Source: a virus
Lineage: Duplodnaviria > Caudoviricetes
Reading direction: 5' to 3' (one strand)
Virus record (IMG/VR): IMGVR_UViG_3300015607_000582
Location: 78,929 to 142,928 of that record
Length of the DNA: 64,000 nucleotides
The notes beneath the pieces were generated by a model that was given only the letters and a program-made list of their open reading frames with translations, did not search any database and was not told the DNA's origin. Positions 1,659 to 24,659 of this stretch are shown here, in pieces; position 1 is the stretch's first letter, and each line of letters opens with the position of its first letter. The position numbers were made by a program, and so were the translations under genes.

Positions 1659-1948
1659 CCCTGACCCTCCGTCTCCATCGCCAGCTTCTTGCGGAGCTTG
1701 GCCGCGCGCTTGAGCGCCTTGCCGCGATTGAGCCGCCCGACGCGACGCCACCACGGCAACTCCAGCATCGACCAGATGAGGTTCACCTCGTCGACGATGT
1801 CGTTGATGACACGCTCGTTGAGCTGCAGAACCTCCTCGATGAACCCCGCCTGCTTGTTGACGACGTCACCAAGCGAGATGACGTCATCCTGCAGCGCGTC
1901 GAAGGCTTCCTGCCCGAGTTCCATGTGTTCGATCCTCCAGTTGCTCAT
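1655..1948 (-). CDS. Hypothetical protein
   Basis: MSNWRIEH... with overlapping start/stop junctions on both sides and GC3-rich codons. Confidence 0.65.
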   Translation of the reverse strand: MSNWRIEHMELGQEAFDALQDDVISLGDVVNKQAGFIEEVLQLNERVINDIVDEVNLIWSMLELPWWRRVGRLNRGKALKRAAKLRKKLAMETEGQG

Positions 1949-2145
1949 GATGCGGCGAATGCTCCGATGATCTCGCCGTTGTCGCCGTAGTAGACCTTCA
2001 CCTGCTCTCCGAGGCGGACGCCGAAGCGCCGAGCCATGTCGCTGTCCGCGTACATGAACTCGGGCTTCGCGCCGTTGGCCGCCGCCATCAGTCCGGCCCG
2101 GAAGCCGAGCTGGAAGCCGCGCTCGAAGTTGCACTCGCTGGTCAT
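1945..2145 (-). CDS. Hypothetical protein, likely leaderless
   Basis: MTSECNFERGF.... ATG lies 7 nt after the -10 hexamer of the class A promoter. Confidence 0.7.
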   Translation of the reverse strand: MTSECNFERGFQLGFRAGLMAAANGAKPEFMYADSDMARRFGVRLGEQVKVYYGDNGEIIGAFAAS

Positions 2146-2152
2146 GTGTCGA

Positions 2153-2178
2153 AGCGTACCGACCGCGTCGGACGAACC
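2153..2178 (-). promoter_or_regulatory. Class A (putative middle) promoter
   Basis: GGTTCGTCCGAC-N8-TACGCT-N7-ATG. Confidence 0.75.
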
Positions 2179-2179
2179 G

Positions 2180-2638
2180 TCAGCGACCCAGCACCACGCT
2201 GGCCTGCGCCAGCACCCGCTCGCGCAGCTCACGCAGCTCGGCCGAGCGTGCTTCGAGGAAGTCGGCCGGAGGCTCCTCGTCGTGCTCGGCCATGTACTCC
2301 TCGTAGGCCATCTCCTTGGCGTACTTGGCGTACGTGCCCGGCACGAACGTGAACGTGTGGATGAGGTACGGCTCGCCCATGGCGGTGCAGATGAGGTCGA
2401 CGACACGCAGGCCGACCATCGGCTCCTCGTGGTTGAGGATCCTCGTCACCTGCCGAGGCGAGAGCCCCTCAATCGGCGCAGTCCAGCGCGACAGGTCGAA
2501 CTCGTAGTCGTGCTCCTCGGCCGCCTCCTTGAGCCGCTCGATGAACGGCCTGAGCACCGCCGACACCTCCCATACCGGCACCTGACTGCAGTCGTTGCGG
2601 CTGATCTTGGGCACGCTGACGCCAGAGGTGGATCCCAT
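2180..2638 (-). CDS. XRE-like helix-turn-helix protein
   Basis: GLSPRQVTRILNHE..VGLRVVDLICTAMG resembles an XRE HTH. GGGGAG RBS. Confidence 0.6.
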   Translation of the reverse strand: MGSTSGVSVPKISRNDCSQVPVWEVSAVLRPFIERLKEAAEEHDYEFDLSRWTAPIEGLSPRQVTRILNHEEPMVGLRVVDLICTAMGEPYLIHTFTFVPGTYAKYAKEMAYEEYMAEHDEEPPADFLEARSAELRELRERVLAQASVVLGR

Positions 2639-2798
2639 GATTTTCTCCCCGTTGTAGTCCCACTGCGACCGGCGTCCCGAGCCGGTTGCATGATGTGCGC
2701 CGGGAGGCTACCCCAAGTGCATGATGGACTACACGAAGAGGCCACGAGATGGCCGCATAAGTGTGCTCCGAGCGGCGTTTATCGCCCTCAAGGTGGGT

Positions 2799-5700
2799 CT
2801 ACTGCTTGGGCCTGAAGGGGTCACCCGCCGCGCTCAGCGCAGCGATGTCGTCGTAGTTGACCCACCCGGTGGCGTAGTGCGGATGGAGCTTGCCGACATC
2901 GTTGAGCGGGATGTGGACGAGCACCATCTTCATGAACGGCTCGATGTCGACCACCTCGCCCCGGCGTCCGGGCTGCAGATCCGCATACTGGTCGCGCCAC
3001 TCGGGTGCGCCATTCGGGCCGCTGTCGGCGTTGACGCGCTGCTGCAGCTCCGGGTGCCACCCAAGGTCGAGCGTCCGGTAGATGGGCAGACCGTCCTGCG
3101 ACTCGCCGATGGGCTGCGCGCCCGGAATCGGGATCTTGCCCCCGCGCACCTCCAGCGTCACGGGCTTGCGGAGCTGGAAGATGGCCTTCTGGTTGCTCTT
3201 GCGCGACATGGCGTACCACGCCTCGACATCCTGCTCCGCCCCGAAGTGGAACTCGGAGCGACGCAGGGCCGTGACCGAGGCGAGCACCGCCACCTTGATG
3301 CGCTCGTAGCGGTACGGGTCGCCCGCCATCTTCCTGACCTGCGCCTCGTAGTGCTCATGCGCGAAGCAGACCGGCACCTCGTCCCCTCCGCCGAACCGCA
3401 TGATCGTCTTGGCGGGCTCGCCGCAGTGACGACACACGGGGGCCGCGACCTTCGAGTACAGGTGCGCCGGGTGGGTCGGAGACCAAGCGATGGCGTTGGC
3501 TGGAGCGCCCGGCTCGTCCACCCGCCGAGCACTGGGCTCGATGAGCGGCTGCTGGGGGCGCGGCCCCTCGGGGTGCTCAGACAGGTTGTGCTCGGGCACC
3601 CACCGCTGGCCCTTGGACGTGTCGTCGTAGCGAACCTCGTACTGCCAGTACGAGCCGACCGCGTGGGCCGAGCCATTGTTCGTCGGATCGAGCCACCTGC
3701 GCTCGACGACCACTCCGGGCTCGCGCAGGTAGCCCACGTAGGTGTGCGCGCCGACCTCGAACTTGGGCGGCGTGGTCAGGTGCGACAGCGGCACCTGCAT
3801 GTGCTTCACGCCCGGCAGGGTGGCCGCCGCAGGGGCGACTGCATTCCCGAGCGGATAGTCGGAGGCGGGTCGGCCATTGACGGCAGGGAAGTTGACCAAG
3901 AACGGGTTGTGCGGATCCTGCTCGACGCCCTCCAGCGGCTCCTCGCCCCACCTGCGATGTCGGACGTCAGTCAGGTTCGACTTGAGCAGCTCGAAGCCGT
4001 GCAGGATGCTGTTGTAGAATCGTTCGAGGTGCGTGCCGGTGTCGAACTGCTGGTTGTTCTGCTCGCGGGCATGGGCACTGACACTCCGCACCGCACCGGC
4101 AGCGACGTTCAGCTCGCCGACGATGCGCGTGGCGATCCGGATCAGCTCCGGTCGAAGCGGATCGCCGCGCTCGTCGGTCGGGGACGTCAGGAAGCGACGC
4201 TGCAGATTGCGGGCCATCTCCTCAAGCGAGCCCGCCGTACCGTCGGGATTGCTGAAGCCCCAGTTGCGACCGCCGTGAGCCTCCATGTTGCAGCCCGCCG
4301 TGGCGAGAGCCGCGATGGCCTGAGACAGCTCGTCCTCGTCGTAGTTGACGCCCCAACTCGACTCCTCGGTGCCACTCAGTTCAAGGATGTGCTCGACCAG
4401 CTCCTCCTCGACCTTCTCCCAGTCGATCTCATCGACGTAGTGCGCTTCTTGGTAGTCGCGCGTCTCGCCGTCGTCGTCGTACTCGTACTCGCTGCTGGCG
4501 GTGAAGCGGTCGAAGTCGTCCTTGAAGTCGATGGCGTCGTCGAGGTCGGTGATGCTGAACGACTCGCCGTCGTGCCAGTAGTCGCCGTAGTGCTCGCGCC
4601 GCTCCTCCAGCCGCCGCTCCTCGTCGTAGCCGAACTCGTGATGGTCGTAGGCGGCGCTGTCGTTCTCCTCTGATCGGTCGACGGTGATGTCGTACTTGGC
4701 GGCGACGTCGTTGTAGAAGCGCACCATGATGTCGGAGACAGGGTTCTTGCCGGAGCGTTCGACGCTGCGCTCGTCGAGCGGCTGGTTGTCGTTGGCGCGC
4801 ACCTCCAGCGGCACCCACTCGTTCGCGTAGGGAAAGCCGCCACGCCTCCCGCGCAGACCGATGAACAGCGACGCGAGCGGTCGACCCGACTGACTCCGCA
4901 GGCCGACGGCGATCTGGTTGCCGTCGTAGATCGGCGCACGGTACTGCTCGCCGTATGAGCTGTCAGAATCGGCGTAGCAGTGGCTGAGCATCTCACCATG
5001 GCGCTCCATGGAGTCGCTGTCGTTCGGGTCGAGGACGACCGCGTAGTTGCCCTTCTTGTCCTCCCAGACCTTCTTGTCCTCGTCGTCCCAGTAGATCGAG
5101 TTCGTCTCGGGGTCGAGGCCGATGCTCTCCAGCTCCCCCACCCACGAGCGCAAGCTGGAGAAGTCATCGCCCTTGGGGTCGAAGCCGCCTCCGCCAACCT
5201 CGCGGTCGCCGTACATCCGCTGCCACTCGATGAAGGGGATCGCGTTGTCGAGCGTCGAGAGGTCGTAGCTGTTGACGGGGTTGAGGCGCTTGGCCTTCAC
5301 CTCCTCGGCGATCCACGGGTAGATGGTCGCTGCCTCGGGATCCAGACCCTCGATGAGCTGGGAGATGACCTGCAAGTTCGTCAGCCCGGCACCCTCGCCG
5401 TCGTACTCGCTGCCGCGCTTGACCATCTTCGGCGGCTTCGACCACCCCTCGACACGGAGCTGCGCGATCCAGTAGGCGTCGCCGATGATCTCCCTGATCT
5501 CCTCGGTCAGGGGAACCTTGCGCTCCTGTCCGTCGCCGAGATCGAGGAACAGCTCATCCGAGAGCGGGATCGCGCGCAGGCTGTGGCGGACTTTGCTGAC
5601 ACGCCAGAGGTTGCCGGGGGAGATGGTGAAGTGGGCGTCGTTGTCCCAGCCCTCATCGGAGTCTGGCTGGACGCCCGCCTCGCGCATGATCGCATCGAAG

Positions 5701-9000: not shown

Positions 9001-9298
9001 TGTTCGACGACGCGAGGCGGTACCGCTCCTCGCCGACCAGCCGGTAGATGTGCTTGATCTCCAGCTCCGGGTGCATGGTGTACCAGAGCCGCGTCAGGTG
9101 GAACACCGTCCACGGCATGTCCGTGTCCGTGCGGATCTGCAGATTGCCCTTCGGGTCGTAGACGCCTTCGACGATGCCGCCGGGGTTGAACTTACCGGAG
9201 ATGTCTGCGTGCCGCTCGCCGGGCTGGCCGACGTAGACGCGGTCGCCCTCGATGTCGTAGATCATCGGGATGGGGCCATGCAGCTCGACGTCAGGCAT
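6020..9298 (-). CDS. Polyvalent multidomain protein 2 (degenerate CCA/polyA-polymerase head, ART-like, Pol-beta nucleotidyltransferase, SWIM finger, Pro-rich linker, SH3-like)
   Basis: VYVAGETVRD. LWHATP..IHFGT..YQNEAED. VLTGS..SDFDV. CGC..GRPCSH. FKGGDRV..PGRVIEV..YHVQFDDG..WV. Confidence 0.75.
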   Translation of the reverse strand: MPDVELHGPIPMIYDIEGDRVYVGQPGERHADISGKFNPGGIVEGVYDPKGNLQIRTDTDMPWTVFHLTRLWYTMHPELEIKHIYRLVGEERYRLASSNIAAKCIKLLACDPLWEPAQELLEYGTVYVAGETVRDVVQRRPMQPGDLHIAVEGVEPDTVREVVTRHCGPGALVRVAMIGFETAERHLASVDRDRVLVSLATGDLIDPYHETERMIAEAHALWEDWEHRVEPGSGSLRHDEREPHEMTKWEFERHPDTLWHATPAGEMGDGVIHFGTQKAAYEAMTANLAGGNASSLKWQPHEPLDALRAETADTWHKGPKDWHTKPTFIPVRVSPHREDDMADAHEMGYPFNGGDMGDWHGGSGDAYANHAINEGWDDTGYWYQNEAEDVGSVSGVVPDKSWLWTHEDFVKDALQRGIDLDAIDEAILDDYPHLRQRRTANILDPVRDQLSSHVFDNPSSATPDVKPEIIDFVRKTITDAMVAAGWPDPDQYLSLVLTGSLTTYQYDDTGPSDFDVSLFVDAARMPDWVRADLVKVMVGSVDGTKLPGTDIPLQAYVVPADIRREDLYKPGLRSGYDLDKREWIVPPDKSMAKEVRPSLRAYAEMVVDKMKLLLMYAPDAAREFWHQLHKSRQEAQRAGLGDFSDANVAYKAIANAGLHPAIEKLTGEHIAKVAGLGLGMRLVVAENTMQKSMRLIRDGKVTVNYHGIHPTKPGILTQGHVIGDHGDYEVEIESTDPRSSSIDMWHCGCKWSQYAWGRTRKWKRLEGRPCSHVRALYWASKSHPLEGIEELKALDPAFKPAPGQRVTPFSEDELFERNKGQIPGMDEQRADLGLDLDKLPRSFSPDDKPPIISLPDMREQIEQQMPAQPAGPPPGPIAPRPANPFTPPQRKKGPGPGQFKLFDITAPPGGQPVPPTNPTSIPGANPPGWENPGNPTQFPGTYSSVGDEYEDYWRADGRVDDFMAEQNRRYLDGEMDEDERQAWTELHRAEYNRRIHEVPEELRATDYRFKGGDRVIYRLVTHPDARAKIPDWPEVIDKPGRVIEVKHEPDGLFEGGTVYHVQFDDGHEGWVGPDNLIAERSTDMSNFEENWR

Positions 9299-12230
9299 GG
9301 GGCTCTCCGTTCAGTCCGATGTGCGATGGCGGGAACAGCTCGGGCGGGCGCGGGTCGCCCCACACGTCGCGCTCAGGGCCGACGTAGTCGCCAACGTGGA
9401 CTGCCGGTCGGCCGATCTTGTCGCGGAACTCCGCCATCGGCCCCATCCTGCGCACGACGGTGACGGGAACGTGCGTGTGGCCGAGGCTCTCTGCCATCTC
9501 AAGGCGGTGGTGGCCCTCGCCGAGGTAGGCATGGCCGTCGGCAGCACTCCACTCCAGCATGAGCGGCTGGTTGATGCCGTGCTCGGCGATGTGGTCGCGG
9601 AGGCGCGCGAAGCTGACATCGTCGTTGATCCTGTCGCCTCCCGTCCGGTCGAACTCCGCGAACCGCCTGACTTCGGAGATCGGCATCATCTCGGCGAACT
9701 GCATCTGCCATCCCGGCTTCTCGCTGTACTGCTGCCACTTCGGGGTCTCGCCACGGTCGATGGACGACCAGTCGGGCTCCTGCGCCCATGGCGCGGCCGT
9801 CTTCGGCCGTCGGATGCGCTCCGGAAGCTGGCTCCCGTACTGCTCGCGCCAGTCGCCATGATCCCAGTCGGTGACGTAGCTCGGGTGGATGGGGCCACGG
9901 TGCGTCATGCCCGCATCGTGGGGCACACGCGGCTCGTCGTGCCAATCCTCCTCGGGAGGGTAGGGGTCGGCGTAGTTGCGCAGGCTCTCGTGGAGATCCT
10001 CGGGCAGGTGCGGCCAGAGCCGAATCGCCTCGGGGATGCGAACCCGATCCTTGCTCGATCCGGGCAGCTCCTCCGGCGGCACCTCGCCGTGCTGTGTGAC
10101 CGCGTCCCAGATGTCATGCGTGGGGTCGTACCACTCATCCCATCCGTGCGTGCCGCGCTCCAGCTCGTGAGGCTCGTAGTCGTCCTCCTCCTGCGCGACC
10201 TGCTTCCACTCGTCGCGCTCGTCCTCTGGGCGGCGCGTGTGGTGGAGGATGTCCGCGAAGTGCTCGGGGTCGCCCTGAATGCGGCTGGGGTCGAGGCCCT
10301 GCATCTTGACGATGACGGGGTCGTTGAGCTTGTTGTTGATCGCCATGGTGCCCGCCCACTGCGCCGCCGTCTCGTAGTGCGGGAACACGTAGACGTGATC
10401 GGTCAGGCGCGGCACCCACTCGACCGTGTGCGAGGGATCCTGCTGGAACCTCGCGGGCAGGATGCCGCTCTGCTGGATGACCGGCAGGTTGGAGCGATCC
10501 GTGACGTGGTACCACTCGTCGTTGAACCGACCCATGCCGACTGCAGTCCAGCCCGCGACGACGCCGAGCTGATCCTGCTTGCGCTGGTAGTCGACGAAGT
10601 TGTTGGGGAAGGTGGCGTCCATGTTGACGTAGGGGTCGACCTCGCTCGGCAGCGGGTCGGCTCGCGTGTGCTCGGCGACAGTGTGCTCGCGCCATGCCCC
10701 GTAGTCGGGGAAGTGCTCGCCGCACTCGGAGCACTCGTACGCACCGCCGTTGGGCTCGCCCTCGTCGGGGCCGTCGATGCTCCATCCGGGCGGCGGCATC
10801 TGGTCGAACTGGTCGGTGCCCGCCCACTCCTTGTTGCGCCAGTCCTTGACGCCGGGGTTGTTGGGGCCGACGCCGAAGCCTGCGGCAGTCGTCTGCGACC
10901 ACGCGACGGCGTCCGGGGACATGTGGCCCCAGTCGTGCTCGACGGCCCCGAAGACGCGACGTGCCTCTTCGAGCAGGGCGGAGGCGACGCCCGTCCGACG
11001 GTACTCGGGCTCAACCTGCACTCCGCCGATGACCCACTGCCCCTGATCGCCCTTCGCGACCGACAGGATGCCCACGGCCGTCTGCCCCGAGTAGGCGATG
11101 AAGTGGTTGAGGGTCTGCTTGATGGCGAAGGACGGCGGCAGCGGCATGGCCGTACGAACGCGACCCTCGACCTGTCGCATGCGGAAGTTGTAGAGCACCT
11201 CGTTGAACGAGCTGTCGATCAGCCACGCGAGCGGGTCTTCGACCTCGGTGACCGTGTAGTCGACCCCGTTGAGGCGGTAGACGCGGCCGACCTGCGGCAC
11301 GCCCTCGCTGTCTGGCGTCACCTGCGCGGCGGGGGCGGCCGGGTTGATCGGCTGCACGCCCTCGCCACGGCAGTTGCAGTCGCCGCGCTCGCACTTGCGG
11401 AGCTGCGCCTTGGCGTTCCGGTCGCTACGGTAGTCGCTCGGCGTCGCGGCGACGTTGACCTTGTGCCCATTCTGCACGAAGCGGAAGTGGCCGCCCGGCA
11501 GCGGTACCAGCTCCCACCCGGCCTTCGTGGCCTCGGGGAATCGCTGGAGGATCTTGCGGTTGGCTACGCGCTCTCGCGGAAGGCGGCGCTCTTGACCTGA
11601 GCCTCGCGCAGGCTCTCCGGCGTCGGCTGCCAGCCATCCGTCACGCCGCACGACGGGCAGGGGAAGGTCTCGCCCTCCCGGTGCGCCACCCGATGCCCGC
11701 AGCTCTGGCACGGACGCCTCCAATGACCGCTCGCCGTCTGCACGACGGTCGGGTCGCCCTTCTCGAACTTCTGCATGGATGGCTTCATGGTCACTCCTCA
11801 GTGTGCCCGTTTTCTCCAGATGAGGCAACCCCTGCTCGTCGATCAGCCCCTTGTAGTTCCATCCGTAGGTCTTGGCGGCCTTCTTGAGCGCCTTCTCGAC
11901 GATGTCCAGCTTCATGTTGCTCGACAGCAGCTCGAACTCGGCGTCCCAGCGGTCGAACAGGTGCAGGATCCCCTTGGCGTGGGGCCGTGAGAAGTGCGAA
12001 TGGCTCGCCATCTCCAGCATGAGCTGGTGATCTGCGGTCGGGTGGATCAACACCTGATCCTTGCCCACGACGACCCAGTTGTAGGGCGTCGGCTCGTGGC
12101 TGGGCTCGACCCGCGTGTAGTCAGGGCGAGGAGCGAGCGGCTGAACCTTGGGGCGGGCGTCGTTGGCCGCCTGCGGCTCCTCGGCGGGGTAGGCATCGCT
12201 ACCGGAGGTGTCAGAGGTTCGGTGCGTCAT
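9291..12230 (-). CDS. Polyvalent multidomain protein 1 (HicA-like, GNAT, C2H2 finger, ADP-ribosyltransferase-like, ParB-like)
   Basis: AGWELV..GGHFRF..ATPSDYRSDRN (HicA-like). VQVEPEYRRTGVASALL (GNAT motif A). CSECGEHF..WREHTVAEH. WYHVTDRSNLPVIQQSGILP (ART). HIAEHGINQPL..EGHHRL (ParB). Confidence 0.8.
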   Translation of the reverse strand: MTHRTSDTSGSDAYPAEEPQAANDARPKVQPLAPRPDYTRVEPSHEPTPYNWVVVGKDQVLIHPTADHQLMLEMASHSHFSRPHAKGILHLFDRWDAEFELLSSNMKLDIVEKALKKAAKTYGWNYKGLIDEQGLPHLEKTGTLRSDHEAIHAEVREGRPDRRADGERSLEASVPELRASGGAPGGRDLPLPVVRRDGWLAADAGEPARGSGQERRLPRERVANRKILQRFPEATKAGWELVPLPGGHFRFVQNGHKVNVAATPSDYRSDRNAKAQLRKCERGDCNCRGEGVQPINPAAPAAQVTPDSEGVPQVGRVYRLNGVDYTVTEVEDPLAWLIDSSFNEVLYNFRMRQVEGRVRTAMPLPPSFAIKQTLNHFIAYSGQTAVGILSVAKGDQGQWVIGGVQVEPEYRRTGVASALLEEARRVFGAVEHDWGHMSPDAVAWSQTTAAGFGVGPNNPGVKDWRNKEWAGTDQFDQMPPPGWSIDGPDEGEPNGGAYECSECGEHFPDYGAWREHTVAEHTRADPLPSEVDPYVNMDATFPNNFVDYQRKQDQLGVVAGWTAVGMGRFNDEWYHVTDRSNLPVIQQSGILPARFQQDPSHTVEWVPRLTDHVYVFPHYETAAQWAGTMAINNKLNDPVIVKMQGLDPSRIQGDPEHFADILHHTRRPEDERDEWKQVAQEEDDYEPHELERGTHGWDEWYDPTHDIWDAVTQHGEVPPEELPGSSKDRVRIPEAIRLWPHLPEDLHESLRNYADPYPPEEDWHDEPRVPHDAGMTHRGPIHPSYVTDWDHGDWREQYGSQLPERIRRPKTAAPWAQEPDWSSIDRGETPKWQQYSEKPGWQMQFAEMMPISEVRRFAEFDRTGGDRINDDVSFARLRDHIAEHGINQPLMLEWSAADGHAYLGEGHHRLEMAESLGHTHVPVTVVRRMGPMAEFRDKIGRPAVHVGDYVGPERDVWGDPRPPELFPPSHIGLNGEPHA
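11564..11788 (-). CDS. Small Zn-ribbon protein nested out of frame inside the 979-aa ORF
   Basis: GAGGAG RBS plus ATG. CQSC...CPSC. Third positions are G/C-rich in this frame but not in the enclosing frame. Confidence 0.7.
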   Translation of the reverse strand: MKPSMQKFEKGDPTVVQTASGHWRRPCQSCGHRVAHREGETFPCPSCGVTDGWQPTPESLREAQVKSAAFRESA

Positions 12231-12235
12231 GAGGC

Positions 12236-12248
12236 TTCGACGATTAGG
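12236..12248 (-). promoter_or_regulatory. Class B (putative late) promoter
   Basis: CCTAA-TCGT-CGAA directly before the ATG at 12230. Confidence 0.55.
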
Positions 12249-12264
12249 TGTGAGCCCACGACAG

Positions 12265-12343
12265 GCACTGCGCGGTCCCCTGCGCCCGAGGCGGCCACGC
12301 TGGCCGAAGAGGTCGCGCCCCGGACACAGGGAACCCGCAGTAC
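12265..12343 (-). ncRNA. Long G-U-containing hairpin, candidate structured RNA
   Basis: GTACTGCG-GGTTCCCTG-TGT-CCGGGGCG / CGCCTCGG-GCG-CAGGGGACC-G-CGCAGTGC. Non-Watson-Crick positions are G-U on the minus strand. Lies between two class B motifs. Confidence 0.5.
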
Positions 12344-12380
12344 GAGACCTCGATCACCTCCGCCATCGGACGACAACCTC

Positions 12381-12393
12381 TTCATGGATTAGG
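12381..12393 (-). promoter_or_regulatory. Class B (putative late) promoter
   Basis: CCTAA-TCCA-TGAA, intergenic. Confidence 0.6.
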
Positions 12394-12401
12394 CAGAGCA
12401 G

Positions 12402-12569
12402 TCAGTCGCTCGCGGGGGCGTCGTCGACCGTCTGGCCCACGCCTCGCCTCGCGCGCTTGGGATGCACATCGCACCGAAGGCACACGTATGCAGGCAGCTT
12501 CTGCCGCGAGGTACTCTCGGCAGCGAGTTGCCGGACGGAGCCGCACAGACGACAGGTGGCCTCATCCAC
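12402..12569 (-). CDS. Small Zn-finger protein
   Basis: GTG start overlapping the upstream stop region. CRLC...CLRC. Confidence 0.5.
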   Translation of the reverse strand: MDEATCRLCGSVRQLAAESTSRQKLPAYVCLRCDVHPKRARRGVGQTVDDAPASD

Positions 12570-12795
12570 GCTTGGATGAACCGAAGCGACCCGGCGAGCC
12601 ACCCGCGCCCTGAACAGTGCCAAGGCCGAACCCGGATCGGTAGTCGCGCTTGTGCGGCGTGTCCAGCCCCACACCAGCATCATCAACGCCAGCGCAGCTA
12701 CAGGGAAGCATGAGCGATTCGGAAACCTCATCGAGCCTCAGCTCCCTCTCCGTGACGAACCCACAGCTCTCGCATCGGTAGTCGTAGACCGGCAT
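12562..12795 (-). CDS. FmdB-like zinc-ribbon protein
   Basis: MPVYDYRCESCG N-terminal signature. Confidence 0.8.
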   Translation of the reverse strand: MPVYDYRCESCGFVTERELRLDEVSESLMLPCSCAGVDDAGVGLDTPHKRDYRSGFGLGTVQGAGGSPGRFGSSKRG

Positions 12796-13082
12796 CACCA
12801 CGCCCTCCCCTCGTTGCCATGCTTGGCGAGCCACTGGCGGATGAGCTTGTACGCGCCCTCGGCTCGCTCCAAGGCGCGTTCGATGTCGTGTTCGTCGGGC
12901 GACCCGCGCAGGCAGTTGATCGTGCGGACGAGCGCCCGCTGCGTGGCGAACAGGTCGTCGACCTCCGGCACGGCGCGCTTCATCGGCTGGCGCTGGTAGG
13001 GGTGCTCGAACGACCGTGGCAGCGGCTGGGCGATCTGGAAGTGATCCCCGCCCAGCGGGTTGGCTGGATCGTAGGGGCTCAC
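12795..13082 (-). CDS. Hypothetical protein
   Basis: Coupled ORF with phage-like codon usage. Confidence 0.65.
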   Translation of the reverse strand: MSPYDPANPLGGDHFQIAQPLPRSFEHPYQRQPMKRAVPEVDDLFATQRALVRTINCLRGSPDEHDIERALERAEGAYKLIRQWLAKHGNEGRAW

Positions 13083-13471
13083 TCGTCCTCCTCGTCCTCG
13101 GGCTCGTCGTCATCGGTGAACTCCAGCGCGGGAGCGCGGTGGTCGCCGGTCAGTGCGCCGAGGGGCGTGGCGTGCAGCTCGGGCTCGTCAGCCACCTCGG
13201 TGTCGTCGGCGGCCGCCAGCTCCTCCTGCGCCTGCGCCCTGCCGCGCTCCGCCCAGTAGTCCTTGACGTGGCCCTCGAAGCGGTCGCGCACTGCCTCCAG
13301 CTCCTTGGTGAGCGGGCTGTAGCGCACATCCACGAGGTTGTTGTGGCACTTGGCGATGTCCTCCGCCTGCTGCTTGCCCAGCGCGAGGCCGATGACCTCG
13401 ACGAGGTTCATCAGGTCGGGGACGCGAACCTCGACGAAGTCCATCTTGTAGCTGTCGGCGTCAGACGCCAT
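13079..13471 (-). CDS. Hypothetical protein with acidic C-terminus
   Basis: GGAGG RBS, coupled ORF. Confidence 0.7.
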   Translation of the reverse strand: MASDADSYKMDFVEVRVPDLMNLVEVIGLALGKQQAEDIAKCHNNLVDVRYSPLTKELEAVRDRFEGHVKDYWAERGRAQAQEELAAADDTEVADEPELHATPLGALTGDHRAPALEFTDDDEPEDEEDE

Positions 13472-13787
13472 TGAGTGCCTCCTCGATCAGGGTCTCGATA
13501 CGGTCGAAGTCTGGGGCGTGCAGGCTCACGGCCTGAATCGCGCGCTCCCAGAACACCTGCCTCATGCCCCCAGAGGAGCGCATGATGATGAACGGCGACG
13601 ACTTCTGGTTGGCCTCGGCCATGAAGTCCTCCAAGCAGTGCTCCATGAAGCCTGCGACGCCGATCTCCTTGATGTAGAGCGCGGGTGCCTCGATCTCCAT
13701 GAGCGCCAGCACCGGATCCTCCCGGTTCTCCAGATAGAACTCCATGTGGAGGTCGAAGGCGATCTCTGGGCCCTCGTCGCCGATCAC
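13461..13787 (-). CDS. Hypothetical protein
   Basis: Coupled ORF, GC3-rich. Confidence 0.7.
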   Translation of the reverse strand: MIGDEGPEIAFDLHMEFYLENREDPVLALMEIEAPALYIKEIGVAGFMEHCLEDFMAEANQKSSPFIIMRSSGGMRQVFWERAIQAVSLHAPDFDRIETLIEEALNGV

Positions 13788-14071
13788 TGGTCAGCCACTG
13801 CCTTCCCATGCGCGTCGACCAGCCAGATGAGCGACTTGCACACGCCGCACTGCCACAGGTTCACCGGGAGATCGGGCTCGCCGGGGCGGTCGTCGATGAA
13901 CTGCTGGACGGCGTTGAGCGGATGCGGGCACTCGGTGGCCGGGCGATCCTTGGCGGCCAGCACCTCGGTCTTGCGCATGAGCTGCGCGTCCGGGTTGATC
14001 TGCTTGATCGGCGCGACGCCGTCGCGGATCATCTCCTCGAACGTCGACATCTTCTTGGGCTGGTCAGCCAA
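13784..14071 (-). CDS. Hypothetical protein with CxH/CxxC Zn motif
   Basis: GGAGG plus TTG at 14071. ECPH...WQCGVC. Confidence 0.65.
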   Translation of the reverse strand: MADQPKKMSTFEEMIRDGVAPIKQINPDAQLMRKTEVLAAKDRPATECPHPLNAVQQFIDDRPGEPDLPVNLWQCGVCKSLIWLVDAHGKAVADQ

Positions 14072-14642
14072 GGCCGTCCTCCAACACATCGCGAATGGAC
14101 TGCAGGTCTTCGATCCACGCCTGCCCTTCACTGCTTAGGAGGCCGCCACGGCGGGCCAGATAGGCGGGATCGTGGACTGGCATGACGGACATGTACATGC
14201 CGAAGCGATCTACCTTCATGACGAGGCCGTGTACCAGCGCGAGGCTGGGCAGCTTCTGGCCAACGATGAAGGCGGCAGGGCTTGCGCCGACGGCCACAAT
14301 CAGGTCGGGCTTCGCACTCTGGATGGTCTGAACCAGATGGCCCGAGCAGTAGTCCAGCTCGTGCGCCGTGGGCTTCCGGTTCACACCTCCGGGGCCGACG
14401 GGGCGGCGCGGGATCAAGTTGGTGTAGAGCACCTGCTCGGCCAACCCGAGCCCCTGCATGATCTCGCGCACGACCTCACTCGTCTTGCCCGTGAAGGGCT
14501 CACCCGTGCGCTCCTCGGTCTCGCTTGGCGCAGTCCCGACCACCATGACCGAGCAGGGCGACGCCCCGCTCGCCGGGACGAACTGCTGCGCAATCAGCGG
14601 GCAGTTGACGCACCGCAGCGGATGAGGGTCAGACGACGCCAT
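14064..14642 (-). CDS. Uracil-DNA glycosylase superfamily protein (family 4-like, atypical motifs)
   Basis: CVNC, VMVVGTAPSETEERTGEPFTG, LYTNL..RRP..NRKPT..E..C, IVAVG, HDPAYL. Confidence 0.85.
   Translation of the reverse strand: MASSDPHPLRCVNCPLIAQQFVPASGASPCSVMVVGTAPSETEERTGEPFTGKTSEVVREIMQGLGLAEQVLYTNLIPRRPVGPGGVNRKPTAHELDYCSGHLVQTIQSAKPDLIVAVGASPAAFIVGQKLPSLALVHGLVMKVDRFGMYMSVMPVHDPAYLARRGGLLSSEGQAWIEDLQSIRDVLEDGLG
14127..14139 (-). promoter_or_regulatory. Class B (putative late) promoter inside UDG 3' end
   Basis: CCTAA-GCAG-TGAA, uses a rare CTA codon. Confidence 0.55.
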
Positions 14643-14645
14643 CAG

Positions 14646-15266
14646 CTACGCCAACCCCGCTCGCTCCAGATCGACGCCCTCCAGTCCCGCTTCGATGGAC
14701 TTGCGCACGTAGCTCTTGAAGGCGTCCTCGTAGATGGGCCCAGTGATCTTGGGGTGGAAGAACGAGGGCAGCGGGTGACCGGCGACCGGCGTCATCGCCA
14801 GCTCGTGGTGGTACTGCACGACGTCGATGACCCGCTCATCGGGCGCGACGCCCTTGAACTGCAGCGACGTCGGCTCCGCGTGTCGCAGATACACGCCCTC
14901 GTTGACGAGGCAGATGTGGTCGACCGCATCGACGGCCGCCTGCCCCTCCGGCGGAATCGGCCACGGCAGGCCGTATGCGACACACATGCGCTCGTAGAGC
15001 TGGTGCTCCAGCTCCTTCTGCTCGTCGGACTTCCACGGTGTCGGCACGTCGTTGGTGACGGCCTCCGGCGCATCGTGGAAGAGCGCGTAGATCGACCACT
15101 TCGGCTCGCAGAGCACAGCCGCCGTCAGCGCATGCGCCAGCACGGGGTAGTGCTCCTCAGTGTGGCCAGCGAAGCGAACGAGGCGGCCGAGGCTCGCCCC
15201 GATCTCGCGCAGGGTGAGGACGCCATCGTCGTGCTGCCAGCAGTGCGAGCCGTCGAGCGCAATCAC
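14646..15266 (-). CDS. HD-domain 5'-deoxynucleotidase (YfbR-like)
   Basis: RFAGH..Y.V..H, ALFHDAPEA..NDVPTPWK. Confidence 0.85.
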   Translation of the reverse strand: MIALDGSHCWQHDDGVLTLREIGASLGRLVRFAGHTEEHYPVLAHALTAAVLCEPKWSIYALFHDAPEAVTNDVPTPWKSDEQKELEHQLYERMCVAYGLPWPIPPEGQAAVDAVDHICLVNEGVYLRHAEPTSLQFKGVAPDERVIDVVQYHHELAMTPVAGHPLPSFFHPKITGPIYEDAFKSYVRKSIEAGLEGVDLERAGLA

Positions 15267-15269
15267 GAG

Positions 15270-15860
15270 CTACCTCCCGAGGAGCGTGCGGATCTGCGTG
15301 TCGAGGAACGAGAACCCGTCGTCACGCACCGTGTTGTCGATGGTCGCGGTGATGAAGTGATCGGGGAGCGGCACCTCGGAGGGGTGGTCGCCCGTGTCCT
15401 CGTCGGGGCCAACGACACGCCAGACCTGACCGCCCCGCTCGATGATCGTCTTCGCCTCGTTCTCGAAGCGCACGTCCGTGCAGACGAAGGTTCGGTCGAG
15501 GCCGCTCCCGAGGTCGCCGCTCAGGGCCATGTCGACCCAGAAGTCGTCACCGAACACGTCGCGGCCACCCTCGGTGCCCTTGAACTGCAGGTACTGACGC
15601 CCGGTGATCGTGAAGTGCTGGACGCCGTCGACCGAGACGGCAATCGTGCCGTGCTCCTTGAGGATGTTGGCGAGGTCGATCAGCTCCTGATCGGTGCGCC
15701 TGTTGCCGAAGGCGTCGCTGCGCATGCCGAGGCTCGCCATGGCGCTGATCTTGAGCTTGTCGGCGAAGCCGAAGCGGACGGGCTCGATGCCCAGCGCCGC
15801 CATGCGCTCGCAGACCGTGTCCTTGCCGCTCCCGAGGCGGCCGTGGATCCCGATCAGCAT
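15270..15860 (-). CDS. Deoxynucleoside monophosphate kinase (T4 gp1-like)
   Basis: IGIHGRLGSGKDT, FADKLK, RQYLQFKGTEGGR..FWV, TDVRFENE, HPSE. Confidence 0.9.
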   Translation of the reverse strand: MLIGIHGRLGSGKDTVCERMAALGIEPVRFGFADKLKISAMASLGMRSDAFGNRRTDQELIDLANILKEHGTIAVSVDGVQHFTITGRQYLQFKGTEGGRDVFGDDFWVDMALSGDLGSGLDRTFVCTDVRFENEAKTIIERGGQVWRVVGPDEDTGDHPSEVPLPDHFITATIDNTVRDDGFSFLDTQIRTLLGR

Positions 15861-16111
15861 CAGCAGTTCTCCGAGTTCTCGGTGTAGAACTCCGTGACCT
15901 TCTCGTCGACGCGCTCCTTGAGCACCTCGTAGCGGTCGGCGACGAACGCCTCGACCAGCTCCTCGGACAGGCCCTCGACGTTCCACCGCTCGGTCTGCGA
16001 GACGTGCAGGTCAGCACTCTCGTACTTCGCGATGCTGGCCTTCACTCCAGCGGAGTAGCTGACGACAGCCTCGATCTGCTTGGGCTGCGGCAGTTCCTTC
16101 TTCGGCGGCAT
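15860..16111 (-). CDS. Hypothetical protein
   Basis: First ORF after class A promoter, coupled to the kinase. Confidence 0.75.
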   Translation of the reverse strand: MPPKKELPQPKQIEAVVSYSAGVKASIAKYESADLHVSQTERWNVEGLSEELVEAFVADRYEVLKERVDEKVTEFYTENSENC

Positions 16112-16140
16112 GCTTCCCCCATGGGTTGGACTTGCGCCCC

Positions 16141-16166
16141 ATCATAGAGACGGCGTCGGACGAACC
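16141..16166 (-). promoter_or_regulatory. Class A (putative middle) promoter
   Basis: GGTTCGTCCGAC-N8-TATGAT ahead of the nucleotide-metabolism genes. Confidence 0.75.
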
Positions 16167-17429
16167 TCAGCCGCGATAGCGCCACGAGCGCCAAGTGACG
16201 TCGCCGCGCTGGGGATCGAACAGCACCAGCTCCGGGTGCCAGCGCCCATCCGGATGGAGCACGATGACCCCGAAGGACTGACCCACGTCGTGCGCGTGGT
16301 TGTAGCCGAGGTCGCGGCGAGCCATCGTGCCGACGCTCCACGCGATCCGCTGCACGTACCCGTTGGCGGTGCGCTTGGGGACGACGTTGATCGCGGTCTT
16401 GTGGTCGTGGCCCTGAAAGACGTCGACGCCCTCCCAGTTCTGCAGCTCCCGCACCGCGCCGCCACCCTTGCCCGTGTACACGCCGTGCAGGCCAAGCAGC
16501 TCGTCGGTCAGGTGCAGGATGTTGTCGTGGTACTCGCCGCCACTGTCGACGAGGTTGATGCGCAGCGAGTCGAGGTTGAGGACGCTGCGGAGACCGAGCA
16601 GTGGGTGATCCTCGCCGGGCCGCGTCAGCTCCGCCAGCTCGGGGAACTTCTCAAGGATGCGGTACCAGAGCCAGTGGTCGTGGTTGCCGACGATGAGGTC
16701 GAAGTCTGCGTCAGGTGCTGCGTTGCGCCAGCGGGCGAGGAGCGCGTAGGTACCCATCTGGGACTCCTCGACGCTGATGTCGAGGTCGACCCGCTTGTTC
16801 TTGCGATGGCGGCTGAACGGCGAGGCGTCCCATGCGTCACCCAAGCAGATGACACGCTCGGGCTGGAACTCCTCCAGCCACGCGACTGACGCCTCCTCCA
16901 TGATCTCCTCGTTGAGGGGCGCGTGGGGGTCGGGGAAGATGGGGATGAGCTTCGGCTCGTTCGACTTGCCACGCGACGGGCGAGCGGGCGGCGGCACCCA
17001 GCCGGGCTTGAGGTCGAGCTGGAGGCTGGAGAAGTCGGGCTTGCGCTCCAGCCAGAGCTTGAGCTGGTAGCTGGGGTTCTCCGGGTTGCCCCACCAGCTC
17101 GCGACCGCCTTCTTCTCGACGTAGTTGTCGGGGTCGAGCCCGTGCAGCTCTTTCAGCTCATCCGGCGTGATCTGCTTGCGGTCGGACAGCTTGACCCATG
17201 GCCCGGTGATCTCGACGTCCCGCCCGCTGACCGTGATTCCGGGGCGGCTGGTGTCGGGGTTGACGGGCCCCTCGACGTTGCGCTTCTTCGCGCGCCTGAC
17301 GGAGTCCTTGGTGGTCTGGACGCCGAGGAGCTTGAGCTGCTCGACGATCTGCACGTTGGTCAGTCCAGACGAGGCCCACGCCGCGATCTGCCCCAGATAT
17401 GGATCGAGCGGCGAAGTCCCACTACTCAT
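16167..17429 (-). CDS. Calcineurin-like metallophosphoesterase with N-terminal HTH
   Basis: PDPH, LGDAWD, GNHD, HG and GHDH motifs. Confidence 0.85.
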   Translation of the reverse strand: MSSGTSPLDPYLGQIAAWASSGLTNVQIVEQLKLLGVQTTKDSVRRAKKRNVEGPVNPDTSRPGITVSGRDVEITGPWVKLSDRKQITPDELKELHGLDPDNYVEKKAVASWWGNPENPSYQLKLWLERKPDFSSLQLDLKPGWVPPPARPSRGKSNEPKLIPIFPDPHAPLNEEIMEEASVAWLEEFQPERVICLGDAWDASPFSRHRKNKRVDLDISVEESQMGTYALLARWRNAAPDADFDLIVGNHDHWLWYRILEKFPELAELTRPGEDHPLLGLRSVLNLDSLRINLVDSGGEYHDNILHLTDELLGLHGVYTGKGGGAVRELQNWEGVDVFQGHDHKTAINVVPKRTANGYVQRIAWSVGTMARRDLGYNHAHDVGQSFGVIVLHPDGRWHPELVLFDPQRGDVTWRSWRYRG

Positions 17430-24282: not shown

Positions 24283-24659
24283 CGCGCAGGCGGCTCGATG
24301 GCCCGAATCACTCGCCGGACGTCCTTGTCCTCGTTGCGGTCGACCGCGCGCCGCACCTCGTGGTACTGGCGCTCGTGGTCGAACCCGTGCTTGTTGTACT
24401 CGTGGCCCGGCACGCGACCAACCACCTCGATGGTGGCGGGGCCGATGCCGAGCAGGCACTCGGTCGTGTGGACGCGGACGACGTAGCCGATCTTGTACGC
24501 CTCGTCCTGAGCGCGCTTCGCCATCTCGCCGACGTGCAGGTGATCGTTCGGCTTCTTGGAGTAGCGACGCATCAGCTCCCGCCACATGGTGGCGATGCGC
24601 TTGACGTCCTCGTCGTGCATGTCGGCAGAGGTGATCCCCTGCTCGGCGTACTCGGTCAT
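24279..24659 (-). CDS. Hypothetical protein
   Basis: MTEYAEQG..., coupled to terL. Confidence 0.7.
   Translation of the reverse strand: MTEYAEQGITSADMHDEDVKRIATMWRELMRRYSKKPNDHLHVGEMAKRAQDEAYKIGYVVRVHTTECLLGIGPATIEVVGRVPGHEYNKHGFDHERQYHEVRRAVDRNEDKDVRRVIRAIEPPAR

What the first reader, a model, noticed from the sequence alone, without database searches (positions are those of the whole stretch)
11564..11810. A complete Zn-ribbon gene nested out of frame in the linker of polyprotein 1
Seen: inside the 979-aa ORF there is GAGGAG-N5-ATG (11788) starting a 74-aa CxxC...CxxC protein that ends at TAG 11564. Its codons have the genome's G/C-ending bias, whereas the enclosing frame here reads as off-frame, Arg/Gly-rich text yet stays stop-free. 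The enclosing frame is properly coded on both sides. The downstream HicA-GNAT-ART-ParB part has no evident start of its own after the TAG, and the overlap is bracketed by EKTG and ERVA|N. Inference: a gene cassette was inserted in a frame-preserving way and is tolerated because the overprinted linker is cut out. This would be true dual coding and independent support for polyprotein processing.
Basis: partly seen in the sequence, partly recalled or inferred. Interest (0 to 1): 0.78.

Follow-up and report, generated by a model that had tools for sequence, protein, structure and literature searches.

The report
Small gene nested in phage polyprotein
A real 74-codon zinc-ribbon gene sits one base out of frame inside the spacer of a large multi-domain phage protein gene, so one stretch of DNA very probably encodes both a small protein and a throw-away linker; a related phage carries the same zinc-ribbon in frame as part of the big protein.

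Summary
Observation confirmed. A complete Zn-ribbon gene lies in the +1 frame inside the 979-aa ORF 12230..9291(-). It has a stop (TGA 11800), GAGGAG, 5 nt, ATG 11788, 74 codons and TAG 11564. GC3 switches frame exactly there, and this is the only internal switch in the 143-kb phage genome.

It is not an assembly error. An independent assembly (L003) is 99.98% identical with no indel. A diverged relative (L002) keeps the same two-frame layout.

Selection acts on the Zn frame (dN/dS 0.41). The enclosing frame is only kept stop-free. That alone is weak evidence here (P 0.2-0.5), but it is significant across three loci, including L005, where an unrelated 105-aa gene is nested at the same place.

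Two findings are new. The syntenic phage L007 lacks a 921-nt in-frame insert made of the Zn gene plus HicA-like and GNAT modules. Phage L004 has a homologous Zn-ribbon in frame at the same position.

Best reading: an embedded-gene architecture, as in Rz1/Rz or the ShiLan insertion, within a polyvalent phage protein. Translation of both frames, linker removal and the small protein's function are untested.

The scan has noted similar nested genes in giant phage proteins on other DNA.

The parts
9291..12230 (-). Enclosing 979-aa ORF (P0001). It is the first of three tandem multi-domain ('polyvalent') protein genes.
   Evidence: Pfam and PHROG find GNAT, C2H2 and ParB-like domains. tblastn hits the ParB-like proteins of cluster C mycobacteriophages.
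11805..12230 (-). Conserved N-terminal module, aa 1-142, ending ..LPHLEKTG. It has a disordered head (aa 1-45) and a compact alpha/beta domain.
   Evidence: It is 71-84% identical to the N-termini of four long proteins (P0004-P0007, 836-1951 aa). More distant homologues also head long proteins. DNA homology to L004 and L007 stops exactly at 11805/11806. In the AF2 model pLDDT exceeds 90 for aa 50-130, and no PDB match was found.
11565..11804 (-). 80 codons of the enclosing frame (T143..V222) that read the nested gene in its -1 frame. The product is Arg/Gly/Ala/Pro-rich with no coding signature.
   Evidence: GC3 is 0.55-0.68. There is no homologue except where the same DNA arrangement recurs. 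Against L002 there are 3 synonymous and 28 non-synonymous codon changes, apparent dN/dS 2.1.
11810..11813 (-). AAAA run. It is made by the rare Lys codon AAA of EKTG plus the A of ACG.
   Evidence: AAA makes up 15 of 1180 Lys codons in this genome. Relatives L004 and L007 use AAG at this site. A +1 slip here would reach TGA 11800 after 3 codons. Its significance is unknown.
11794..11800 (-). TGA (11800-11798), which closes the nested frame upstream, overlapping GAGGAG (11799-11794), a Shine-Dalgarno-like site 5 nt before the ATG.
   Evidence: This genome has 226 SD-N4-8-ATG sites in 286 kb of both strands; 90 are followed by an ORF of at least 60 aa with GC3 of at least 0.8, and this is one of them.
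11564..11788 (-). Nested Zn-ribbon gene: 74 codons plus TAG, with ligands CQSC and CPSC, in the +1 frame of the enclosing ORF.
   Evidence: GC3 is 0.905. The L002 homologue is 56% identical (36/53 in the core) with all four Cys kept and its own GGAGG-N6-ATG. dN/dS is 0.41. BLASTP against the in-frame module of P0004 gives E 2e-5. There is a weak Pfam hit to HVO_2753_ZBP.
11565..11567 (-). GTA (Val222) of the enclosing frame, overlapping the nested TAG by two bases (GTAG). It sits where free-standing relatives of the next module have their start codon.
   Evidence: The motif cGTAGCC is identical in L005. Stand-alone relatives in L006, L008 and L010 start by a 4-nt overlap with the upstream stop, 17-22 residues before the GW motif.
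11361..11564 (-). HicA-like (alpha-beta-beta-beta-alpha) module, aa 223-290, in the enclosing frame.
   Evidence: PHROG 2089, E 2e-9. 22 homologues share GW..GGH..TPSD..N..A.LRRCE. The AF2 model has pLDDT 81. HicA toxins rank 1, 2 and 4 by VIA-align (Z 4.8, 4.6 and 4.3; rmsd 2.4-2.9 over 54 residues). There is no Pfam HicA hit.
10884..11804 (-). 921-nt (307-codon) in-frame insert relative to syntenic phage L007. It holds the SD, the Zn-ribbon gene, the HicA-like module, a spacer and GNAT.
   Evidence: In P0005 (L007), EKTGA runs directly into DFGVGPNNPGVKDW. The window has the same motif at aa 452 onward. blastn breakpoints are at 11806 and 10894. The near-identical strain L003 diverges at 10886.
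10878..11123 (-). GNAT acetyltransferase module (aa 370-451), the last part of the insert.
   Evidence: Pfam PF00583, E 2.6e-7, above the gathering score.

Best explanation
This is an embedded-gene architecture inside a phage polyvalent (multi-domain, probably virion-delivered) protein gene.

Ribosomes starting at ATG 12230 meet no stop. They read through the small gene in its -1 frame, which yields an 80-residue low-complexity linker. They then continue in frame into the HicA-like, GNAT, C2H2 and ParB-like modules.

Other ribosomes start at the internal GAGGAG-N5-ATG (11788). They make a separate 74-aa Zn-ribbon protein that ends at TAG 11564.

The Zn-ribbon and the HicA-like module travel together:
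- fused in frame in phage L004;
- embedded out of frame here, in L003 and in L002;
- as adjacent coupled genes in L006.

The two are therefore probably functionally linked. The HicA-like module's own start codon is no longer needed, and GTA now stands at its expected place.

Shown:
- the anatomy;
- that the sequence is real;
- selection on the Zn frame;
- stop-avoidance in the enclosing frame across three loci;
- the empty-site and in-frame homologues.

Inferred:
- that both frames are translated;
- that the linker is tolerated or removed;
- that the Zn-ribbon works with the HicA-like module.
For: 1. Real sequence. L003, an independent ENA assembly, has 1 mismatch and 0 gaps over 5345 nt, including the whole overlap. 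That single difference is synonymous in the Zn frame and E-to-K in the enclosing frame.

2. Nested gene under selection. GC3 is 0.905, with SD-ATG and an in-frame stop 3 codons upstream. The L002 homologue keeps all four Cys. There are 10 synonymous and 17 non-synonymous codon changes, dN/dS 0.41. The enclosing frame shows 3 and 28, ratio 2.1.

3. The enclosing ORF has no stop. Its N-terminal module is never a stand-alone gene in close relatives: P0004-P0007 are 836-1951 aa with cargo in frame.

4. The layout recurs.
- L002 has the Zn gene at +1, the HicA-like part at 0, and the enclosing frame open to the contig end.
- L005 has a different N-terminal domain, an unrelated 105-aa nested gene at +1, and the HicA-like part in frame. 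Its ORF 1826-4822 is open.
- The probability that the enclosing frame is open, given each nested gene's own codons, is 0.21, 0.08 and 0.05. Each case must also be in register (1/3). These loci were found through the HicA-like domain, not through openness.

5. The empty-site homologue L007 and the in-frame Zn-ribbon homologue in L004 sit at the same position. BLASTP gives E 2e-5, and GC3 in the L004 ORF frame is 0.83-1.0.

6. Stand-alone HicA-like genes start where GTA now stands.

7. Precedents exist for embedded same-strand genes: Rz1 in Rz (PMC6139136) and the ShiLan out-of-frame HNH in an actinophage methylase (PMC11855218).
Against: - There are no expression data, and read-level and RNA data could not be obtained.
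- In this window alone the open enclosing frame is unremarkable (P 0.2-0.5).
- L002 is a 785-nt contig of 1.6x coverage.
- Window and L002 are homologous, so their openness is not fully independent.
- The rare AAA codon, making AAAA just before TGA 11800, could mean that some ribosomes leave the frame.
- In-frame GTGs lie inside the overlap, at 11712 (after GGAGG-N5) and at 11652. They could start the downstream part. However, they are by-products of xxG-TGC Cys codons, and the SD-like site is not kept in L002.
- The weak resemblance between the ends of the two N-terminal domains is not significant.
Confidence: 0.6

Rival explanations
1. There are three separately made products. The N-terminal module ends by a +1 slip at AAA-A (11813-11810) onto TGA 11800. 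The Zn-ribbon starts at 11788. The HicA-to-ParB part starts on its own, at GTG 11712 or 11652, at a CTG, or by re-initiation at the TAG. The long fusion would then be a minor or unwanted product.
For: AAA makes up only 1.3% of Lys codons, and relatives have AAG at this site. The slip would end 9 nt before the nested ATG, a geometry that favours coupling. GGAGG-N5-GTG lies at 11722-11710. Gene callers start the L005 and L002 proteins internally.
Against: - No hungry codon or stop follows AAA.
- The region has no unusual structure (z 0.23), and no -1 heptamer was seen.
- AAAA runs occur elsewhere in coding DNA of this genome.
- L002 and L005 have no stop in the +1 frame upstream of the nested start, so the scheme is not general.
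- The internal GTGs are by-products of Cys codons, and their SD-like site is not conserved.
- It does not explain why the enclosing frame is kept open and in register in three loci.
- The N-module always carries cargo in relatives.
Confidence: 0.15
2. The Zn frame is a relic. An originally in-frame Zn-ribbon module (as in L004) was thrown out of frame by two compensating changes. It is no longer expressed, and only the polyprotein matters.
For: A homologous module is in frame at the same position in L004. The present sequence would be stop-free if read 0/+1/0.
Against: - The layout is shared with L002 at 74% nucleotide identity, yet the Zn frame keeps GC3 0.87-0.95, all four Cys and dN/dS 0.41.
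- Both copies have SD-ATG at the same place.
- DNA between EKTG and the Zn core is not homologous to L004. The boundary is a recombination joint, not a point indel.
Confidence: 0.07
3. The fusion is a recent, neutral recombination scar. The read-through happens but serves no purpose, and the locus is on its way to being resolved or lost.
For: The window and L003 are 99.98% identical, so they give no time depth. Openness in this window alone is likely by chance. Cargo is shuffled freely at these joints, for example where L003 diverges at 10886.
Against: The same register and openness hold in L002 and L005 at much greater divergence, with two different nested genes and two different N-terminal domains. 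The downstream module has no start codon of its own here.
Confidence: 0.1
4. The feature is an assembly or sequencing artefact: two compensating indels in an ordinary in-frame polyprotein, or in three ordinary genes.
For: High-GC metagenome assemblies do produce open frameshifted ORFs. P0021 looks like one.
Against: An independent assembly from another sample reproduces every base of the overlap. The diverged L002 has the same frame offsets. Stops TGA 11800 and TAG 11564 bracket the Zn frame.
Confidence: 0.03
5. The Zn-ribbon unit is a selfish insertion: a ShiLan-like homing element, an intron, or an intein-like element.
For: It is a frame-preserving 240-nt unit whose start lies 16 nt inside it and whose stop lies at its end. 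This resembles the ShiLan description (PMC11855218).
Against: - There is no HNH or other nuclease signature.
- Only 13 residues separate the two CxxC pairs.
- There is no Rfam intron match and no unusual fold.
- The empty-site comparison gives a 921-nt unit, not 240 nt.
- The same module is an in-frame domain in L004.
Confidence: 0.05

Closest known systems
Embedded spanin genes Rz1 inside Rz of phage lambda (PMC6139136, PMC5295617)
   Same: A complete small gene with its own start lies wholly inside a larger same-strand gene in the +1 frame. Gene finders miss it. Related phages carry the same pair in other architectures (embedded, overlapped or separated there; fused, embedded or adjacent here).
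   Different: In Rz both frames encode functional, conserved sequence. Here the inner gene carries the selection, and the outer frame across it is a compositionally odd linker that seems only to be kept stop-free. The proteins are unrelated to spanins. Expression is untested.
ShiLan domain: out-of-frame HNH endonuclease in a frame-preserving insertion of an actinophage DNA methylase (PMC11855218, PMC9957025)
   Same: It occurs in high-GC actinophage-type DNA. The insertion gives no stop in the host frame. The hidden ORF starts a few bases inside the insertion and stops at its end. Homologues without the insertion exist.
   Different: The hidden ORF here is a 74-aa Zn-ribbon with no nuclease motif. 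The inserted unit is 921 nt and includes in-frame modules. The hidden module is an ordinary in-frame domain in a relative. There is no evidence of homing.
Polyvalent proteins of phages and conjugative elements (Iyer, Burroughs, Anand, de Souza, Aravind 2017, PMC5512222)
   Same: A string of unrelated effector-type domains (GNAT, ParB-like and others) sits in one phage polypeptide. Cargo is shuffled between relatives behind a constant part. Three such genes lie in tandem.
   Different: That paper does not mention frameshifts or overlapping genes (0 occurrences). No processing peptidase was looked for here. Packaging and delivery are not shown.
MuF-type polymorphic toxins with adjacent immunity genes, and hicAB toxin-antitoxin pairs
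   Same: A constant N-terminal part carries variable, possibly toxic cargo. A small gene is tightly linked to a HicA-like fold.
   Different: No MuF domain, HicB or Pfam HicA match was found. The small gene lies upstream and embedded, not downstream. Binding is not shown.

Membership tests
Embedded same-strand overlapping gene pair (Rz/Rz1 type) | Inner ORF lies wholly inside the outer ORF, on the same strand, in another frame | tested here: met
   Inner ORF 11788..11564 lies inside 12230..9291, in the +1 frame.
Embedded same-strand overlapping gene pair (Rz/Rz1 type) | Inner gene has its own translation start signals | tested here: met
   GAGGAG-N5-ATG with a stop 3 codons upstream. L002 has GGAGG-N6-ATG. 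This is sequence-level evidence only.
Embedded same-strand overlapping gene pair (Rz/Rz1 type) | Inner frame is under purifying selection | tested here: met
   dN/dS 0.41 against L002, four Cys kept, GC3 0.905.
Embedded same-strand overlapping gene pair (Rz/Rz1 type) | Outer frame is constrained across the overlap | tested here: inconclusive
   The residues are not conserved (3 synonymous, 28 non-synonymous changes). The only constraint seen is stop-avoidance: P 0.21, 0.08 and 0.05 in three loci.
Embedded same-strand overlapping gene pair (Rz/Rz1 type) | Both products are made | not testable with these tools
No proteomics is available.
Polyvalent protein (PMC5512222) | Several unrelated effector-type domains in one phage polypeptide | tested here: met
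   GNAT (above the Pfam cutoff), C2H2-like, ParB-like (PHROG 26387 at 8e-7; tblastn to cluster C phage ParB-like proteins) and a HicA-like fold.
Polyvalent protein (PMC5512222) | Mosaic shuffling of domains among orthologues | tested here: met
   P0003-P0007 share the N-module with different cargo. Breakpoints are at 11805 and 10886-10894.
Polyvalent protein (PMC5512222) | Packaged in the virion, delivered, and processed by a peptidase | not tested
No peptidase domain was searched for.
HicA toxin (Pfam PF07927) | Match to the family profile | tested here: not met
   No Pfam hit at E up to 5 for aa 215-330. The profile search against PDB sequences found no HicA.
HicA toxin (Pfam PF07927) | alpha-beta-beta-beta-alpha (dsRBD-like) fold resembling solved HicA | tested here: inconclusive
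   The model has this topology. HicA chains 5yrz_B, 6g26_E and 6hpb_A rank 1, 2 and 4, but with Z of only 4.8-4.3. Foldseek E exceeds 0.9.
HicA toxin (Pfam PF07927) | Cognate HicB antitoxin gene next to it | tested here: not met
   No HicB-like gene is present. The neighbours are the Zn-ribbon gene and in-frame modules.
ShiLan-type hidden homing endonuclease insertion (PMC11855218) | Frame-preserving insertion without stops in the host frame, absent from some homologues | tested here: met
   A 921-nt insert absent from L007, with the host frame open.
ShiLan-type hidden homing endonuclease insertion (PMC11855218) | Hidden ORF is an HNH (or other homing) endonuclease | tested here: not met
   Only a weak Zn-binding-pocket hit was found, with no HNH match. 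The atlas neighbours are small Zn-binding proteins.
Programmed ribosomal frameshift site | Slippery sequence plus stimulator at the frame change | tested here: inconclusive
   AAA-A is present at 11813-11810, but a slip leads to a stop. No -1 heptamer lies before the TAG. The fold z-score is 0.23 and there is no Rfam hit.
Group I/II intron | Match to intron covariance models or an unusually stable fold | tested here: inconclusive
   No Rfam match at E up to 5 over 11300-12100, and z 0.23.

The most novel reading that the evidence does not exclude
The nested Zn-ribbon protein is the dedicated partner of the HicA-like module that follows it, acting as a brake, antidote or chaperone. Related phages switch this partner between two states: fused in frame, where it is delivered with the polyprotein, and embedded out of frame, where it is made separately and kept in the producing cell. 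The polyprotein frame across it is selected only to stay open. This would be a general way for phages to hide effector-partner genes inside disposable linkers of virion polyproteins.
Probability: 0.25. Interest if true: 0.7.

Novelty: new variant of a known kind. Interest (0 to 1): 0.55.

Why it matters
1. Annotation. Gene finders called either the long ORF or the inner gene, never both. The Zn-ribbon protein has no entry in a 5.8-billion-protein collection. Small genes of this kind are being missed systematically in phage genomes.

2. Evolution of overlapping genes. Here the older, well-coded reading is the inner one, and the outer frame is the newcomer. This is the reverse of classical overprinting. 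The same module is seen fused, embedded and possibly adjacent in related elements, which gives a natural series for study.

3. Biology of polyvalent proteins. An 80-residue nonsense linker would be tolerated only if spacers between modules are dispensable or removed. The locus therefore offers a direct test of processing.

4. If the small protein controls the HicA-like module, this is a new way of linking an effector to its partner.

Tried and rejected
- **Close relatives in public collections.** Megablast and tblastn against 50,697 phage records found only ParB-like hits. Six scans of IMG/VR found no relative. A metagenome scan with the Zn-ribbon alignment found none. The HicA-like alignment found only L006.
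- **Protein word searches.** The Zn-ribbon at near lengths and the L005 N-terminal domain at longer lengths both found nothing.
- **Complex prediction** of the Zn-ribbon with the HicA-like module gave no verdict (score 0.00). I use it neither for nor against binding.
- **Homology of the L005 N-terminal domain to the window's N-module.** hhalign aligned only a 14-column stretch at probability 0.7%. I rejected this as evidence.
- **Paralogy to other Zn-ribbon proteins.** The upstream 77-aa Zn_ribbon_8 gene gave E 0.016 and the L006 Zn-ribbon gave E 0.004. Both are too weak to use.
- **Fold of the N-module.** No PDB match was found.
- **P0048 and P0041 hits that overlap the linker.** P0048 is an unrelated repeat protein; P0041's HicA-like match lies at the C-terminus of a low-GC protein of different context.
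- **Other frame switches flagged by GC3.** Those in this genome are ordinary upstream-gene overlaps at ORF 5' ends. One in L007 is noise.
- **Promoter and terminator scan of 11400-12500.** Nothing was found.
- **Contexts of stand-alone HicA-like genes.** Cys-rich neighbours are common, but there is no consistent partner.


Full report
**Setting**

The window is the last 64 kb of a 142,928-bp, 66% GC virus contig from IMG/VR, estimated 96% complete. Nearly all genes are on the minus strand. The finding lies in the first of three tandem ORFs of about 1000 codons. Their products are strings of unrelated small domains (note e1-5745471). This matches the 'polyvalent proteins' described for phages and conjugative elements (PMC5512222).

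**Observation**

The 979-aa ORF runs 12230..9291 on the minus strand (P0001). In its +1 frame I find, in order:
- TGA at 11800-11798;
- GAGGAG at 11799-11794;
- the spacer TGACC;
- ATG at 11788;
- 74 codons with ligands CQSC and CPSC;
- TAG at 11566-11564.

GC3 in sliding windows behaves as follows:
- The ORF frame scores 0.80-0.97 down to about 11870.
- The +1 frame scores 0.78-0.95 from about 11840 to 11630.
- The ORF frame resumes from about 11600.
- The nested ORF as a whole scores 0.905.

A scan of every long ORF of the genome found no other internal switch. The other flags are ORF 5' extensions overlapped by the end of the upstream gene. After the TAG, no canonical start occurs in the enclosing frame before the core of the next domain.

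**How much is chance**

Off-frames often stay open in this genome.
- The -1 frame of real genes is stop-free over 76 codons in 52% of windows.
- It is stop-free in about 20% of synonymous permutations of the nested gene itself.

'Stays stop-free' is therefore weak evidence on its own. What is not ordinary is that the upstream coding part has no stop, the downstream part has no start, and the two are in register.

**Not an artefact**

L003 is a contig from a different sample and assembler. It matches window 16230..10886 with one mismatch and no gap. The match includes the AAAA run and both borders. The single difference is synonymous in the nested frame (GAG to GAA) and changes E to K in the enclosing frame. 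L003 then diverges into different cargo at 10886, so it is a different genome. I could not inspect reads.

**Relatives**

An exhaustive phmmer search with residues 1-330 gave five informative results.

1. *The N-terminal module.* Residues 1-142, ending LPHLEKTG, form a conserved module. It is 71-84% identical in four proteins of 836-1951 aa (P0004-P0007). It is more distantly present at the head of many other long proteins. In those four the cargo follows in frame.

2. *The empty site.* L007 (P0005) is syntenic upstream. There EKTGA runs straight into DFGVGPNNPGVKDW, a motif the window has only at residue 452 onward.
   - blastn places the breakpoints at 11806 and 10894.
   - The window therefore carries a 921-nt, 307-codon insert (11804..10884).
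   - The insert comprises the SD, the Zn-ribbon gene, a HicA-like module, a spacer and GNAT.

3. *An in-frame homologue.* L004 (P0004) shares 81% DNA identity up to 11805.
   - It continues, in frame and with GC3 0.83-1.0, into a Zn-ribbon homologous to the nested one. BLASTP gives E 2e-5 and 37% identity over 62 residues. The shared pattern is KGD..V..G..C..CG..GE..CPSC..PE.SLR.A.V..AA.
   - A divergent HicA-like module follows it (hhalign E 2e-4).

4. *The same embedded layout in a diverged relative.* L002 is a 785-nt contig.
   - It has a Zn-ribbon gene 56% identical to ours (36/53 in the core) with GGAGG-N6-ATG.
   - The HicA-like reading is in its -1 frame, as here.
   - The enclosing frame is open to the contig end.

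5. *A different nested gene at the same place.* L005 has a different N-terminal domain that starts by an ATGA overlap with a NUMOD3 endonuclease-like gene.
   - Next come about 90 nt without coding signature, then an unrelated 105-aa gene in the +1 frame.
   - The HicA-like start of a 719-aa ParB-bearing protein then follows, in frame with the N-terminal domain.
   - The whole stretch 1826-4822 is one open frame.
   - DNA homology between L005 and the window begins about 15 nt before the nested stop. Both read cGTAGCC there.

**Which frame is selected**

Over the 159-nt ungapped core, the window and L002 are 74% identical.

| Frame | Synonymous codon changes | Non-synonymous codon changes | dN/dS |
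|---|---|---|---|
| Zn frame | 10 | 17 | 0.41 |
| Enclosing frame | 3 | 28 | 2.1 (apparent) |

The nested gene is the selected reading. The enclosing frame is not conserved as protein.

The enclosing frame does avoid stops. Given each nested gene's own codons, the probability of an open -1 frame is 0.21 (window), 0.08 (L002) and 0.05 (L005). In addition, each must be in register with the upstream domain (1/3). These loci were found through the HicA-like domain, not through openness, so there is no ascertainment bias. Allowing for the shared ancestry of the window and L002, the joint probability is of the order of 10^-3. I take this as moderate evidence that continuity of the long ORF is maintained by selection.

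**The missing start codon**

Free-standing relatives of the HicA-like module are 68-84 aa. They begin 17-22 residues before the conserved GW, usually by a 4-nt overlap with the upstream stop (L006, L008, L010). In the window and in L005, the enclosing-frame codon at exactly that place is GTA, overlapping the nested TAG as GTAG. This suggests a start that is no longer needed because translation arrives from upstream.

The in-frame GTGs inside the overlap (11712, 11652) are by-products of xxG-TGC Cys codons. The GGAGG before 11712 is not kept in L002.

**What the modules are**

- *Zn-ribbon.* There is only a weak Pfam Zn-pocket hit, and the atlas neighbours are small Zn-binding proteins. No nuclease motif is present.
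- *'HicA-like' module.* It has no Pfam HicA hit. It belongs to a 22-member family with the pattern GW..GGH..TPSD..N..A.LRRCE. Its model (pLDDT 81) has alpha-beta-beta-beta-alpha topology. Solved HicA toxins rank 1, 2 and 4, but at Z of only 4.8-4.3. I call it HicA-like in fold, not a member.
- *N-module.* It has a disordered head and a confident alpha/beta domain without a PDB match.

A Zn-ribbon next to the HicA-like module recurs in four arrangements. It is fused in L004, embedded in the window/L003 and in L002, and adjacent and coupled in L006. For L006 the Zn-ribbon homology is marginal (E 0.004). This suggests a functional link.

**Other mechanisms considered**

- *Intron or structured RNA.* There is no Rfam match and no unusual folding energy, z 0.23.
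- *-1 frameshifting.* No heptamer lies before the TAG.
- *+1 slip at AAA-A.* The Lys of EKTG uses AAA, which is 1.3% of Lys codons here. Relatives use AAG. This makes AAAA, where a +1 slip would end at TGA 11800 three codons later. It remains an open minor possibility. However, AAAA occurs elsewhere in coding DNA, and an A-rich stretch may simply favour initiation at 11788.

**Comparison with what is known**

- The nearest textbook case is Rz1 embedded in the +1 frame of Rz, which also exists in overlapped and separated architectures (PMC6139136).
- The nearest case in similar phages is the ShiLan insertion. It is a frame-preserving insert in an actinophage methylase that hides an out-of-frame HNH gene (PMC11855218).
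- This locus differs from both in three ways:
  - the inner gene is a Zn-ribbon, not a nuclease or spanin;
  - the outer frame is a nonsense linker rather than functional sequence;
  - the inner module is an ordinary in-frame domain in a relative.
- The polyvalent-protein paper does not mention overlapping genes.
- Earlier notes of this scan report nested genes in linkers of giant phage proteins on other DNA. Those are leads, not evidence.

**Verdict**

The nested gene and the dual-frame anatomy are real. Translation of both frames, removal of the linker and the function of the small protein remain inferences.

Noticed in passing
L002:70-160 and L005:2290-2378: The roughly 90 nt between the N-terminal domain and the nested gene is conserved between the two loci and lacks a coding signature. 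It contains TTGCAT or TTGCGA, then 17 nt, then TACCAT (promoter-like), followed by a GC-rich hairpin (GGGGCG..CGCCCC in L002). This is a possible internal promoter and leader for the nested gene, yet it is open in the enclosing frame.
   Followed up: partly
window 11810-11813 (-): The Lys of EKTG uses AAA, which is 15 of 1180 Lys codons in this genome. Relatives L004 and L007 use AAG. The resulting AAAA would let a +1 slip reach TGA 11800.
   Followed up: partly
window 10886 (-) / L003:5345: The strain in L003 is 99.98% identical up to 10886. It then carries entirely different cargo and ends as a 579-aa protein. The recombination joint falls exactly at the module border ..WSQTT.
   Followed up: partly
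G000, upstream of the window (window coordinates about -7095, -7141, -11351, -13217, -13241, -68964, -68988, -70201, -70226): A repeated element of about 45 nt occurs on both strands at several intergenic sites, often in inverted pairs. It contains GCAACCCC..GTTGC and AAAAGTTCGCTATTTGCGAGATTTT.
   Followed up: no
window 24279-24740 and 22264-24585 (-): The terminase-like ORF has an open extension of about 100 codons of Arg-rich nonsense upstream of its real start. The extension overlaps the preceding 153-aa gene. It shows how readily off-frames stay open in this genome.
   Followed up: yes
L005:1263-1988: A NUMOD3-containing homing-endonuclease-like gene sits directly upstream of the N-terminal domain gene, joined by an ATGA overlap.
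   Followed up: no
P0021 (335 aa, another assembly): This protein begins with the N-module. It alternates between well-formed segments shared with P0012 and Arg/Pro/Ser-rich nonsense. It looks like uncorrected frameshifts in that assembly, or further frame changes.
   Followed up: no
window 12562-12795 (-): A separate 77-aa Zn_ribbon_8-like gene lies just upstream of the polyprotein gene. It is conserved in L003 and L007. Its similarity to the nested Zn-ribbon is weak (E 0.016).
   Followed up: partly
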